From Puniceicoccales bacterium (GTDB taxonomy: Bacteria > Verrucomicrobiota > Verrucomicrobiia > Opitutales > JAIRKQ01), in contig JAISBD010000022.1 of assembly GCA_031266345.1 (NCBI GenBank), positions 16,451-80,450 on the forward strand: 64,000 bases of DNA, written 5' to 3'. The position numbers are program-made. This document shows positions 39,401-42,400 of this stretch, in pieces (the stretch's first letter is position 1; every line of letters begins with the position of its first letter).

Positions 39401-42400
39401 GTAGGTCATTAAGCTCACAGCACTTCGGCTTATGTCTTTGATGCCGAGATATTTGCCCGCTATCCATCCTCACGAGCAAACTTGCAACATCTTGGCTTAT
39501 ATCTCTGATATTGAAATACTTGCCCGCCTTCCATCCTCATGGGTAAATTCATAGCGCCTCGGCTTATATCTCTGATACTGAGATATTTGTCCGCTATTCA
39601 TCCTCGCGAGCGTGACAGGTGCAAAGGGGTAGCGCTACGGGTCAGCGACCCAATCCGCCGCTGCCTCCCGTGCTCGTCTGAAATCGCCGCCAAGATTAAT
39701 ATCCAGCGCCTATCGCCAGTGCCAACATTTCGTGCTCGTCTGAAGTTCTCGCGTGGAGTCATTAAATTTGCAACGTCTCAGCTTATATCTCTGATACTGA
39801 GATGTTTATCCGCTTTCCATCCTTGCGAGCGTGACAGGTGCAAAGGGGTAGCGTTGCGGGTCAGCGACCTAATTCGCCGCCAGCATTCCGTGCTCGCCGG
39901 AAATTCGCGCGTATGGGATCATTAAATTTGCAACATCTTGGCTTATATCTCTGATACTGAGATATTTGTCCGCTTTCCATCTCCGCGAGCGTGACAGGTG
40001 CAAAGGGGGAGCGTTGTAGGTCATTAAACTTGCAATACTTCGGCTTATATCTCTGATATTGAAATACTTGCCCGCTATCCATCCTCATGGGTAAATTCAT
40101 AGCGCCTCGGCTTATGTCTCTGATGCTGAGATATTTGTCCGTTATTCATTCTCGCGGGCGTGGCATGCGCAAAGGGGTAGCGTTGTAGGTCATCAAATTC
40201 ATAGCACTTCGGCTTATATCTCTGATGCCGAGATATTTGCCCGCTATCCATCCTCACGAGCAAACTTGCAACATCTTGGCTTATATCTCTGATATTGAAA
40301 TACTTGCCCGCCTTCCATCCTCACGAGCAAACTTGCAACATCTTGGCTTATATCTCTGATATTGAAATACTTGCCCGCCTTCCATCCTCATGGGCAAATT
40401 CATAGCACCTCGGTTTATATCTTTGATATTGAGATACTTATCCGCTATTCATCTCCGCGAGCGCGGCAGGCGCAAAGGGGCCACCTCAGTCGGGCTCAAT
40501 GGGGTGGCAGCGCGGGGCTTGCTATTTATTTTCGCCCCTTTTATCTACGGTAGTGGTTTGCATCCGTGACTCGATGAACTCAATCAAGTCTCGCTCTCGG
40601 AATCTCCGGGCCCCGCCCAGTTTAACTGATTTTAGTCCGGGATAGCGATTGGAGTATATCCAATCTTCCAGTGTGTGCTTTTTTATGTTAAGAAACGCTG
40701 CCGCTTCTTGAACATTTAATAGCTTACTGTAGCTGCTGTGCTGCTGTGCTGCTGTGCTGCTGTGCTGCTGTGCTGCTGTGCTGCTGTGCTGCTGTGCTGC
40801 TGTGCTGCTGTGCTGCTGTGCGAATTTTACTAACCATGTTCCATATGTAAAGAATATTTTGCATTTGTGAAGGTTTTATGATAAAATTTTGTGAAATTTT
40901 AGCAAAAAATGGAAAATAAGCTCCCTTTATGACTTATTTCTCCCCCTTTACGTGAAGCTAAACGCCCTTTCTAATTCAGCACGCGCCGGATCATTGGACA
41001 ACCGTGCATAAATTGCTGTGGACTGCAGCGATTTATGTCCCAGCGATTTCCCAATTATTGTTAAACTTGAACCTGTTGTTGCTTGGTAACTCGCCAATGT
41101 TCTTCTGAGGTCGTGGATGCGTAAATTTTCCAGCCCTGCTCGCTCTAGGATTCTTTTCCATGCCGTTTTTGGCTCCTGGATATGCCCACTTTTGCTGTCA
41201 TTGCTTGGGAATGTCCACGGCGATGATTCCCTTAGATGCATGCGACTATTTAATATTTCTAAAGCTTCATCTAATAAGGGTACGCGTACGGGCTCACTGT
41301 TTTTCGTATCCGCTATGCGCCACTCACTTATGCTGAAGTCTATGTCCTCCCTAATGCATGGATAAAACGTTGGATTTACGGGCTCCTGTGTATAAGCATG
41401 CAAGGAAAAATTTCGTGTATTCTTATTCGGCTCATTTTCTAAAGCCTCCAAAAATTTCGGTAATTCGTCTTTTAAAATAAATCTATCGCGTTTTATTTCC
41501 CTAAATTTTTTTACACCAATGGCAGGATTCGTCCCTTCCCAGCCCCAGGAGATCATTTTATTGAAAATTGCACGAATGTATTCCAAAACACTGTTGGCTT
41601 CGTATTTGCTATTTTCTTGCCCGATTTGATTGTGTACTTCTCGCATATCCTGTTTGGTTATCGAAGAAAGTTTTCTTTGAGACAAATATGGTAAAACTTT
41701 TTTAAGGCGCAGTTCAGCATCTTTCCATGATCTTGGTTTCATTCCCAGCTTGGCATATTTTTCCATGTATTCCTGATAAGCTTCCCCGAATGTCTTTTCA
41801 CTGGCCTGCTTCTCCTTCTCCTCCAGGGGATTTTTTTCGATTTTTTTACGCGTTTTTCAAGAAATTGAAAATTAAAGTTAAGCGGAAATCGTGATTATTT
41901 GGGGAAATTTCGGAGTTTTCGTAAAAATATGAGAGCTTGAAGTGACGGATTTTAGATGCGTGAGTTCTTTTTAAACATATGTGTACCCTTGCTATAGTGG
42001 GGATGTATTTCTCGTCTGAACACGCATATTTATATGATTGAAACGCTTCATTTTGTGATTTAGCGGCCGCTTTGATGCATGGGATAATTTTTTATTTCTT
42101 TTGTAAATACAGTGATAAGGTTTAGGCTAAGGTATTCCTGTGATAGTATTTCTGTGAAATTTTTATCCATTTTGAGCAGCAAAAGAGTCCTAATTCGGGG
42201 AAAAATATTTAAAAACTTCTTGACAAAATTATTCTGATTATTTCTTAGAGATTGTTCGTTCATTGATGCAGGGTGGAGCAGCTCGGCAGCTCGTCAGGCT
42301 CATAACCTGAAGGTCGTTGGTTCAAATCCAACCCCTGCACCCAATTTTTATGCCGCTTAAACACAGGGATCGCAGGAGATCAGGGGAAATGAAAAATGAG

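What the first reader, a model, noticed from the sequence alone, without database searches (positions are those of the whole stretch)
40522..40875. Eleven-copy octanucleotide repeat separates an excisionase-like HTH ORF from its only start codon; a slippage-type ON/OFF switch or a decayed gene
Seen: on the minus strand, ATG (40837-40835) is followed by MVSKIR. Then come 11 perfect CACAGCAG units (40820-40733), read as the 8-aa period TAAQQHSS. In the ATG frame translation stops at TAA 40726-40724, giving 37 aa. The excisionase-type HTH (LLNVQEAAAFLNIKKHTLEDWIYSNRYPGLKSVKLGGARRFRERDLIEFIESRM, stop 40524-40522) lies in a different frame. That frame is open from 40875 but contains no ATG, GTG or TTG 5' of the HTH, which is why the ORF track misses it. 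Because 8 is not divisible by 3, 12 or 9 units would fuse the ATG to the HTH, while 10 or 11 units do not. Established knowledge: intragenic repeats with unit length not divisible by 3 are the classic mechanism of phase-variable contingency loci. Inference: reversible switching of a recombination directionality factor or regulator of the adjacent element. Since the integrase is damaged, simple pseudogenisation or a repeat-length sequencing error are real alternatives.
Basis: partly seen in the sequence, partly recalled or inferred. Interest (0 to 1): 0.7.

Follow-up and report, generated by a model that had tools for sequence, protein, structure and literature searches.

The report
Repeat-gated excisionase-like gene switch
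A perfect 11-copy, 8-base repeat sits between a conserved start codon and the DNA-binding domain of a small excisionase/AlpA-type gene next to a broken integrase. Related mobile elements carry the same kind of repeat in different lengths, so it looks like a slippage-driven on/off gate on the element's activation gene rather than plain gene decay.

Summary
(CACAGCAG)x11 is perfect at 40820-40733 on the minus strand. ATG 40837 reads into it and stops at 40726-40724. The intact HTH_17/excisionase-type domain (stop 40524-40522) lies in the +1 frame with no ATG/GTG/TTG, and 9 or 12 units would fuse them.

Comparison changes the picture. The tract is a family feature. A paralog in the same MAG has 8 units. 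Two metagenome elements with intact integrases have (CACAGCTC)x11 (L022) and (CACAGCAG)x9 (L023) at the same site. Four more short ORFs encode tracts of about 8-14 units. A sister clade has a 16-nt unit there in 1-5 copies. The ATG is conserved in 8 of 9 loci plus the paralog.

All four 8-nt alleles whose frame could be checked are OFF and one unit from ON. The HTH domain is nevertheless under purifying selection (dN about 0.1-0.2, dS saturated). In relatives its stop overlaps the next gene's start in an int-HTH-HTH-Toprim-AAA_25 module.

Best reading (about 0.5): a default-OFF slippage gate on an AlpA/Xis-like activator. The window's own copy sits in a decayed remnant, with an integrase pseudogene and no replication module. 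Within-population switching is untested.

The parts
40733..40820 (-). Perfect tandem tract (CACAGCAG)x11. All three frames read cyclic permutations of TAAQQHSS, and none contains a stop.
40835..40837 (-). Conserved ATG, the likely start codon, 17 nt upstream of the tract.
   Evidence: A start-like ATG at the equivalent position in 8 of 9 loci with DNA (ATA in L002) and in the paralog (P0131 '...NMVNKIC'). N-terminal peptide M-[VT]-[SN]-[KR]-I-R is shared by the window and L022 with a CGC/AGG Arg codon swap.
40724..40837 (-). Present (OFF) reading from the ATG: a 37-aa product ending at TAA 40726-40724, two codons past the tract.
   Evidence: JGI annotated the 46-aa version from ATG 40864 (P0130).
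40522..40732 (-). Intact excisionase/AlpA-type winged-HTH coding segment (YSKLLNVQEAAAF...ESRMQTTTVDKRGENK) with stop TAG 40524-40522, in the +1 frame relative to the ATG.
   Evidence: HTH_17 E 7.5e-13. TIGR01764 35.2 bits against cut-off 28.8. Model pLDDT 79; matches RdfS excisionase (TM 0.66-0.71) and Pukovnik Xis. dN/dS well below 1 against relatives.
40828..40830 (-). GTA codon in the HTH frame. The paralog has ATA here, and NCBI used it as the (non-canonical) start of P0001.
   Evidence: P0001 'MKFAQQ' combined with P0131 'MVNKIC' forces the codon A-T-A. This is inference from two overlapping frames.
40824..40851 (-). Promoter-like TTTACA-16-TAAAAT that overlaps the ATG. The TTCTTTAC part is conserved in the family. 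Function is unresolved.
40878..40905 (-). Promoter-like TTGCTA-16-TATCAT upstream of both ATGs. It would place the ATGs in the transcript.
   Evidence: 9 of 12 matches; the number of such sites in the region is not above the shuffle expectation.
40948..41841 (-). Tyrosine integrase pseudogene. It matches residues 86-381 of the intact 386-aa paralog. The N-terminal arm-binding domain is missing, and the catalytic 'LYTGARKSNVLSM' block is shifted out of frame by two compensating frameshifts.
42267..42343 (+). tRNA-Met, divergent from the integrase. L023 has the same tRNA(antisense)-int-HTH layout with tRNA-Ala.

Best explanation
The octanucleotide tract is a hypermutable, frame-setting element. 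It lies inside the 5' coding end of an AlpA/Xis-type winged-HTH gene that follows the integrase in a family of tRNA-associated int-HTH-HTH-Toprim-AAA_25 elements of Puniceicoccales.

Proposed mechanism:
- Translation starts at the conserved ATG (40837) and reads the tract as (TAAQQHSS)n.
- It reaches the HTH domain only when the unit number is 0 mod 3 in this copy (9, 12, 15).
- With 11 units it terminates two codons after the tract.
- Slipped-strand mispairing that adds one unit would turn the gene ON.
- In intact relatives the HTH stop overlaps the next gene's start. The tract would therefore also gate the downstream replication module.

The consensus state is OFF in every 8-nt allele whose frame could be checked. 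I infer a default-OFF gate that lets only rare slippage variants activate excision and replication.

What is shown: the anatomy, the conservation of tract position and ATG, length polymorphism among alleles, and purifying selection on the domain.

What is inferred: slippage rates, start-codon use, and the excision/activation role.

The window's own copy lies in a decayed remnant. At most it could act in trans on the intact paralogous element.
For: 1. The tract is perfect and long.
2. The same site carries (CACAGCTC)x11 in L022 and (CACAGCAG)x9 in L023. Both follow intact 387- and 383-aa integrases.
3. The paralog in the same MAG has 8 units (P0001, P0131). It lies on the contig of an intact 386-aa integrase, P0012.
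4. Four further short ORFs encode tracts of about 8-14 units.
5. A sister clade has a 16-nt unit at the same position in 1, 2, 2, about 2.5 and 4.8 copies, with the ATG in frame in some loci and out of frame in others.
6. In L022 and L023 a stop codon closes the HTH frame immediately 5' of the tract. The ATG frame is therefore the only canonical entry.
7. The start-like ATG is conserved in 8 of 9 loci.
8. The HTH domain has dN 0.10-0.19 with saturated dS between tract-bearing loci. These genes have therefore been translated through most of their history even though their consensus alleles are OFF.
9. ATGA or GTGA stop/start overlap with the next gene occurs in 7 relatives.
10. The domain is excisionase-type by sequence and fold.
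11. In int-alpA-primase satellites, AlpA expression alone is sufficient to trigger excision (PMC10803314).
Against: - No ON allele (ATG-tract-HTH fusion) of the 8-nt clade exists in the 5.8-billion-protein collection. It is therefore not shown that the gene is ever read through from this ATG in that clade.
- No population or read-level data could be examined.
- No Shine-Dalgarno sequence precedes the ATG. A promoter-like motif overlaps the ATG, so the ATG might not be transcribed.
- In L018 and L019 the ATG is out of frame, and annotators used TTG or GTG starts downstream of it.
- The family contains obviously dead copies: L004 (nonsense codon), L007 (fragment), and the degenerate tract of P0132.
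- The window's integrase and downstream module are gone.
Confidence: 0.5

Rival explanations
1. Non-adaptive decay. The tract is only a mutational hot spot that has knocked the gene out of frame. This copy, and perhaps the others, are pseudogenes in dying elements.
For: - The window integrase is a pseudogene, and the second HTH, Toprim and AAA_25 genes are missing.
- There is no canonical in-frame start. NCBI had to use ATA starts for both paralogs.
- L004 has a nonsense codon, L007 is a fragment, and P0132 has a degenerate tract.
- 0 of 4 frame-checked alleles being ON has a chance probability of only about 0.2.
Against: - The same OFF arrangement occurs next to intact integrases and intact downstream genes in L022 and L023.
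- HTH ORFs are intact, with dN/dS about 0.03-0.15.
- Perfect tracts persist across lineages whose synonymous sites are saturated, with unit turnover from CAG to CTC. That is not expected for neutral microsatellites.
- A long perfect tract keeps the lesion reversible, so in practice it behaves as a switch.
Confidence: 0.25
2. The HTH is translated independently of unit number. This could happen from a non-canonical start (ATA or similar) in the HTH frame, or by ribosomal frameshifting at the end of the tract. The tract would then only encode or occupy a variable leader.
For: - NCBI models start at ATA in both paralogs.
- Window, paralog, L023, L018 and L019 all need a +1 shift.
- An excision activator gated by +1 frameshifting is known: FseA of ICEMlSymR7A (PMC4755241).
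- The absence of any ON allele fits a model in which the DNA state never needs to change.
Against: - L022 and L005 need the opposite shift.
- No conserved slippery or stop context is seen at the tract ends.
- In L022 and L023 the HTH frame is closed by a stop immediately 5' of the tract, and no alternative start lies between the tract and the domain.
- The window has GTA, which is not a start codon, where the paralog has ATA.
Confidence: 0.12
3. The tract lies in an untranslated leader and tunes transcription or mRNA behaviour, like the hmw1A/hmw2A repeats. Transcription would come from the TTTACA-16-TAAAAT promoter-like site that ends 4 nt before the tract.
For: - The site matches 10 of 12 positions, and its TTCTTTAC part is conserved.
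- In Haemophilus, 7-bp or octanucleotide repeats occupy the same promoter-proximal site in different lineages (PMC3309571).
Against: - No ATG, GTG or TTG exists downstream of the tract in the HTH frame in any tract-bearing locus.
- The -10 part is not conserved in L022, L018 (CAGAAT) or L023.
- The number of promoter-like sites in the region is not above the shuffle expectation.
Confidence: 0.08
4. The unit count in the assembly is wrong, and the real gene has 12 units.
For: MAG consensus from short reads; repeats are error-prone. An independent Logan assembly breaks at the element.
Against: - The 88-bp tract is shorter than typical reads and final k-mers.
- The paralog, L022 and L023, from other contigs and samples, are also out of frame.
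Confidence: 0.05

Closest known systems
Translational simple-sequence-repeat contingency loci (for example Neisseria opa CTCTT and Haemophilus tetranucleotide genes; survey criteria in PMC7383803)
   Same: A perfect tandem tract whose unit is not divisible by 3, placed between the start codon and the functional domain. Alleles differ in unit number, and ON/OFF is set by frame. Octanucleotide tracts of 3 or more units are accepted as phase-variable candidates.
   Different: The gated gene is a mobile-element excisionase/AlpA-type regulator, not a surface or restriction-modification gene. The host is an uncultured Puniceicoccales (Verrucomicrobiota), not a pathogen. Every consensus allele seen is OFF. 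Switching itself has not been demonstrated.
hmw1A/hmw2A promoter repeats of Haemophilus influenzae (7-bp units; octanucleotide GCATCATC x12-15 in biogroup aegyptius, PMC3309571)
   Same: Different lineages carry different repeat units at the same site, with copy-number differences between paralogs in one genome.
   Different: The hmw repeats lie upstream of the start codon and grade transcription. Here no start codon exists downstream of the tract.
AlpA of PICI/PICMI/P4-like satellites (PMC10803314)
   Same: A small HTH_17 protein next to a tyrosine integrase and followed by primase/helicase genes. In PICMI, AlpA expression is necessary and sufficient for excision.
   Different: Known AlpA genes are induced by helper phage, not gated by a repeat. 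The replication genes here are Toprim_2 plus AAA_25, not DUF3987/DUF5906. No helper phage or packaging evidence is available. The window copy lacks the replication genes.
RdfS excisionase and its frameshift-limited activator FseA in ICEMlSymR7A (PMC11963761, PMC4755241)
   Same: The fold match to RdfS has TM 0.66-0.71. The principle is the same: a reading-frame barrier keeps an element's excision pathway silent in most cells.
   Different: There the barrier is a programmed +1 ribosomal frameshift in the activator's mRNA. Here it would be heritable DNA slippage within the excisionase-like gene itself.

Membership tests
SSR-mediated phase-variable (contingency) gene, translational type | Perfect tandem tract, unit not divisible by 3, above the length threshold | tested here: met
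   11 x 8 nt, 100% identical. The survey threshold for octanucleotides is 3 units.
SSR-mediated phase-variable (contingency) gene, translational type | Tract lies inside the ORF, between the start codon and the functional domain | tested here: inconclusive
   A conserved ATG lies 17 nt upstream and the domain begins about 3 codons (10 nt) downstream. Use of that ATG is not proven. ATG-HTH fusions are seen only in the 16-nt clade (P0005).
SSR-mediated phase-variable (contingency) gene, translational type | Unit number differs among alleles or paralogs | tested here: met
   8 (paralog), 9 (L023), 11 (window), 11 (L022). About 8-14 units inferred from P0132-P0135.
SSR-mediated phase-variable (contingency) gene, translational type | Both ON and OFF alleles exist | tested here: not met
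   All four frame-checked 8-nt alleles are OFF, and no fused protein is in the database. ON-phase alleles exist only in the 16-nt clade.
SSR-mediated phase-variable (contingency) gene, translational type | Reversible length heterogeneity within a population, with a linked phenotype | not testable with these tools
   No read-level data were available.
Excisionase / AlpA-type winged-HTH (Pfam HTH_17, TIGR01764) | Domain match above the curated cut-off | tested here: met
   PF12728 49 bits against 27. TIGR01764 35.2 against 28.8.
Excisionase / AlpA-type winged-HTH (Pfam HTH_17, TIGR01764) | Winged-helix fold like solved excisionases | tested here: met
   Model pLDDT 79. RdfS 8dgl TM 0.66-0.71 and rmsd 1.1-1.6; Pukovnik Xis 4j2n; BldC 6ama. 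Foldseek E-values are weak (1e-3 or worse) because the domain is small.
Excisionase / AlpA-type winged-HTH (Pfam HTH_17, TIGR01764) | Encoded next to a tyrosine integrase of an integrative element | tested here: met
   Window (pseudogene), L022 and L023 (intact). A divergent integrase in L002.
Excisionase / AlpA-type winged-HTH (Pfam HTH_17, TIGR01764) | Stimulates excision or activates element genes | not testable with these tools
   This needs an experiment.
PICMI/PICI-like satellite core (int-alpA-primase) | int, alpA and primase colocalised | tested here: inconclusive
   L022 and L019 have HTH_17, a Toprim_2 protein (E 1.5e-4, at the cut-off) and AAA_25. The window has only the integrase pseudogene and the HTH.
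PICMI/PICI-like satellite core (int-alpA-primase) | Primase of DUF3987/DUF5906 type; helper-phage induction and packaging | tested here: not met
   Those domains were not found. Helper dependence is not testable. The element is therefore not filed as a PICMI.
Programmed ribosomal frameshift gate (FseA-like) | Same frameshift direction and a conserved slippery site across homologs | tested here: not met
   The required shift is +1 in the window, L023, L018 and L019 but -1 in L022 and L005. No shared slippery motif is present.

The most novel reading that the evidence does not exclude
A family of small integrative, satellite-like elements in Verrucomicrobiota may use a heritable, mutation-based lottery instead of a signal to decide when to leave the chromosome. 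An 8-nt (or 16-nt) slippage tract keeps the AlpA/Xis-like trigger out of frame in nearly all cells. Rare one-unit slips would switch on excision and, through translational coupling, the replication module. ON alleles would therefore be found mainly in excised copies and almost never in chromosomal consensus sequences.
Probability: 0.35. Interest if true: 0.78.

Novelty: new variant of a known kind. Interest (0 to 1): 0.62.

Why it matters
Phase variation by repeat slippage is known mostly for surface and restriction-modification genes of host-adapted pathogens. A repeat gate on the excision/activation gene of a mobile element would be a new way for such elements to limit their own activation to a subpopulation. 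It would be the DNA-level counterpart of the ribosomal-frameshift gate of ICEMlSymR7A. It would also extend contingency loci to an uncultured verrucomicrobial lineage.

There is a practical consequence. These genes are invisible to gene callers. JGI called none at L022 or L023, and NCBI forced ATA starts. Such elements will therefore look as if they lack an excisionase in automated surveys.

Tried and rejected
- **DNA of the paralog's 13.5-kb contig.** Exact-protein look-ups for P0001, P0002, P0012 and the window integrase found nothing. Genome, metagenome and viral scans did not contain it. Its tract length and flanks were instead inferred from two overlapping annotated ORFs.
- **P0001 as an ON allele.** I first read it that way. 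I rejected this once P0131 showed that its start must be an ATA codon.
- **Independent assembly.** The Logan contig carrying the identical SecA starts inside tRNA-Met, so it gives no second view of the tract. The RarA look-up failed.
- **L021 and L024.** These integrase relatives have no HTH or tract downstream.
- **Rfam.** Only the two tRNAs were found in 37500-43000.
- **DNA folding of the tract.** It is no more stable than shuffles (z 0.0 and -0.8), so no special hairpin explanation applies.
- **Homology between the 8-nt and 16-nt units.** The best match is 6 of 8 positions in one register, which is not significant. Only positional homology is claimed, supported by the shared 3' flank AGCGGCAA in L022 and L001.
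- **att sites.** Only a 73% similarity was found between the regions downstream of the two tRNAs. Element borders were not resolved.
- **Literature.** No paper linking excisionase genes with simple-sequence-repeat phase variation was found. The sample's environment could not be established.
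Full report
**1. Observation**

- On the minus strand the window carries 11 perfect CACAGCAG units at 40820-40733. There is no other array of this kind in the 64 kb.
- ATG 40837-40835 reads MVSKIR, then the tract as (TAAQQHSS)n, and stops at TAA 40726-40724.
- The +1 frame is open from 40875, runs through the tract, and continues as YSKLLNVQEAAAFLNIKKHTLEDWIYSNRYPGLKSVKLGGARRFRERDLIEFIESRMQTTTVDKRGENK to TAG 40524-40522. It has no ATG, GTG or TTG before the domain.
- Nine, 12 or 15 units would put ATG 40837 in frame.
- There is a second in-frame ATG at 40864. It is not conserved in the paralog.
- The domain is HTH_17 (E 7.5e-13) and TIGR01764 'excisionase family' above its cut-off.
- A model with pLDDT 79 resembles the RdfS excisionase (TM 0.66-0.71), Pukovnik Xis and BldC.

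**2. Local context**

- Directly upstream on the same strand lies a tyrosine integrase remnant (41841-40948).
- Compared with the intact 386-aa relative P0012, it lacks residues 1-85, the arm-binding domain.
- The block FFLTCLYTGARKSNVLSMRW, which holds the catalytic arginine, is encoded in another frame between two compensating frameshifts.
- tRNA-Met (42267-42343, plus strand) is divergent from the integrase.
- Downstream of the HTH there is no second gene. There is only an array of hairpin-containing 67/160/169-bp repeats running toward tRNA-Ala.
- The window's element is therefore a remnant.

**3. Origin and paralog**

- The closest proteins are from Puniceicoccales MAGs.
- P0002 (54 aa) is NCBI's model of the window's own gene, started at the ATA codon of '...NIKKHTL'. 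P0010 and P0130 are JGI's models of the window's integrase ORF and its 46-aa ORF. All three sit on an 88,810-bp contig.
- P0001 (94 aa, 93% identical) and P0131 (51 aa) lie on a 13,471-bp contig that also carries the intact integrase P0012. The protein accessions of P0001 and P0002 are 524 apart. I infer a paralogous element in the same MAG.
- P0001 reads MKFA(QQHSSTAA)2QQHSSYSK. P0131 reads ...NMVNKIC(TAAQQHSS)2TAAQQL. Together these mean 8 units, a conserved ATG, and an ATA codon where NCBI placed the start. The overlapping codons AAT and ATA force this.
- Both paralogs therefore lack a canonical in-frame start. Both are out of frame with the ATG, since 8 and 11 are equivalent mod 3.

**4. 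The tract is a family feature**

Integrase homologs led to two JGI contigs.

- *L022.* It has an intact 387-aa integrase, then ATG, 15 nt, (CACAGCTC)x11 and an intact HTH. These are followed by a second HTH_17 gene, a Toprim_2 protein and an AAA_25 protein.
- *L023.* It has tRNA-Ala (antisense), an intact 383-aa integrase, ATG, 22 nt, (CACAGCAG)x9, an intact HTH and then a second gene.
- In both loci the HTH frame is closed by a stop codon immediately 5' of the tract. In both the ATG is out of frame, with ON at 7, 10 or 13 units.
- JGI called no gene there in either contig.

Other members of the family:

- Four more short JGI ORFs encode the same peptide repeat: P0133 about 10 units, P0134 about 8, P0135 about 10-11 (on the contig of integrase P0035), and P0132 about 14 with substitutions.
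- A sister clade (L001, L002, L004, L005, L019) has a 16-nt unit (AACCWCGGAACCGCTC) at the same position. It is present in 2, 2, 4.8, 1 and about 2.5 copies.
- Relative to the conserved ATG, these loci are in frame (L001, L004; L002 has ATA plus a nearby ATG) or out of frame (L005, L019).
- L018, the closest tract-less relative, keeps one or two degenerate units (GCAAGCAGCACAGCTCAC) and is annotated from a TTG.
- The start-like ATG is present in 8 of 9 loci with DNA.

**5. Is the gene alive?**

- Over the 53-codon domain, tract-bearing loci differ by dN 0.10-0.19 while dS is saturated. Window against L022 gives 0.10 and 3.2. L022 against L023 gives 0.19 and 1.35.
- The domain has therefore been under purifying selection during the time the tract has existed, even though every consensus allele is OFF.
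- In seven relatives the HTH stop overlaps the start of the next gene (ATGA or GTGA). This suggests translational coupling into the replication module. The window has lost this overlap.

**6. Interpretation**

By established knowledge, long perfect tracts with units not divisible by 3 change length by slipped-strand mispairing at high, reversible rates and switch genes ON and OFF.

- The anatomy here fits the translational type.
- The comparative data fit a maintained contingency tract better than a decaying microsatellite. Those data are the conserved site and ATG, unit turnover, length polymorphism, two unit sizes, and selection on the domain.
- In int-alpA-primase satellites, AlpA expression alone triggers excision (PMC10803314).
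- I therefore propose a default-OFF gate whose rare one-unit slips activate the element. ON alleles would be depleted from chromosomal consensus sequences.
- Of these claims, only the anatomy and the comparative pattern are shown. Start-codon use, switching and the excision role are inferred.

**7. Caveats and rivals**

- No ON allele of the 8-nt clade was found. This is also what decay, or a unit-independent translation route, would give.
- A promoter-like TTTACA-16-TAAAAT overlaps the ATG. Its -10 part is not conserved in L022, L023 or L018, and no start codon follows the tract.
- A frameshifting model fails on direction: the required shift is +1 in five loci and -1 in two.
- An assembly error is unlikely as a general explanation.
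- For the window copy specifically, decay of the surrounding element is real. Its HTH could at most act in trans on the paralog.

**8. Comparison with known systems**

- The locus works like a classical SSR contingency locus (criteria in PMC7383803).
- It resembles the hmw repeats in showing lineage-specific units at one site (PMC3309571).
- It resembles the FseA/RdfS system in using a frame barrier on excision (PMC4755241, PMC11963761).
- I found no report of a repeat-gated excisionase or AlpA gene.

**9. Verdict**

- This is a new variant of a known kind.
- Interest is 0.62.

Noticed in passing
window 38049-38555: A 257-bp tandem duplication (96% identical) of the 3' end of the rarA-like gene (ORF 36923-38290). 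The second copy re-encodes the last 70 aa (ORF 38335-38547). It lies just upstream of tRNA-Ala 38633-38708.
   Followed up: no
window 39329-40439: Eleven same-strand copies of a hairpin motif (TATATCTCTGATACTGAGATATTT), embedded in 67/160/169-bp tandem units immediately downstream of the HTH gene. The motif is found nowhere else in the window or in 23 fetched loci, and there is no Rfam match. In most relatives (loci fetched) the contig ends shortly after the HTH gene, so such repeats may break assemblies.
   Followed up: partly
window 39025-39045 and 42472-42492; L021 1-67 and 1590-1650: The palindrome CTATTAGGAAATTCCTAATAG occurs downstream of both tRNAs. A ~65-nt stretch containing it forms a terminal inverted repeat at the two ends of the L021 integrase contig. 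In addition, 38675-38760 and 42310-42395 (the tRNA 3' halves plus about 50 nt) are 73% alike. These could be element-end or att-related sequences.
   Followed up: partly
window 19540-19570: A perfect pentanucleotide tract (CCTTC)x6.2 lies in an intergenic stretch just past the stop of a 255-aa minus-strand ORF (19622-20389). It is a second short-unit repeat whose unit is not divisible by 3.
   Followed up: no
L001, L002, L004, L005, L019, L022, L023 (HTH stop codons): The HTH gene's stop overlaps the next gene's start (ATGA, or GTGA in L022), implying translational coupling. The window has AAATAG instead and only a degenerate remnant of the next gene.
   Followed up: partly
L004 6393-6829: A 216-bp tandem duplication (89%) lies inside the second HTH_17-like gene. 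L004's first HTH gene carries an in-frame TGA.
   Followed up: no
P0009 (cluster of P0002): A 438-aa retroelement-like protein of the dragonfly Ladona fulva is listed in the same 90% cluster as the 54-aa HTH fragment. By eye the sequences look unrelated, so it looks like a clustering artefact.
   Followed up: partly
L020 (Logan SRR14710922), corresponding to window ~42318 onward: An independent assembly with an identical SecA starts inside tRNA-Met. The element region was therefore not assembled contiguously there.
   Followed up: partly
L001, L003, L004, L005, L006, L018: In these relatives the HTH gene lies 230-330 nt downstream of a tRNA gene (Thr, Arg, Cys, Glu or Leu), on the same strand and with no integrase between them. 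In the window, L022 and L023 the layout is integrase followed by HTH on the same strand (with an antisense tRNA upstream of the integrase in the window and L023). In L002 the integrase is divergent from the HTH. The family therefore has at least three layouts.
   Followed up: partly
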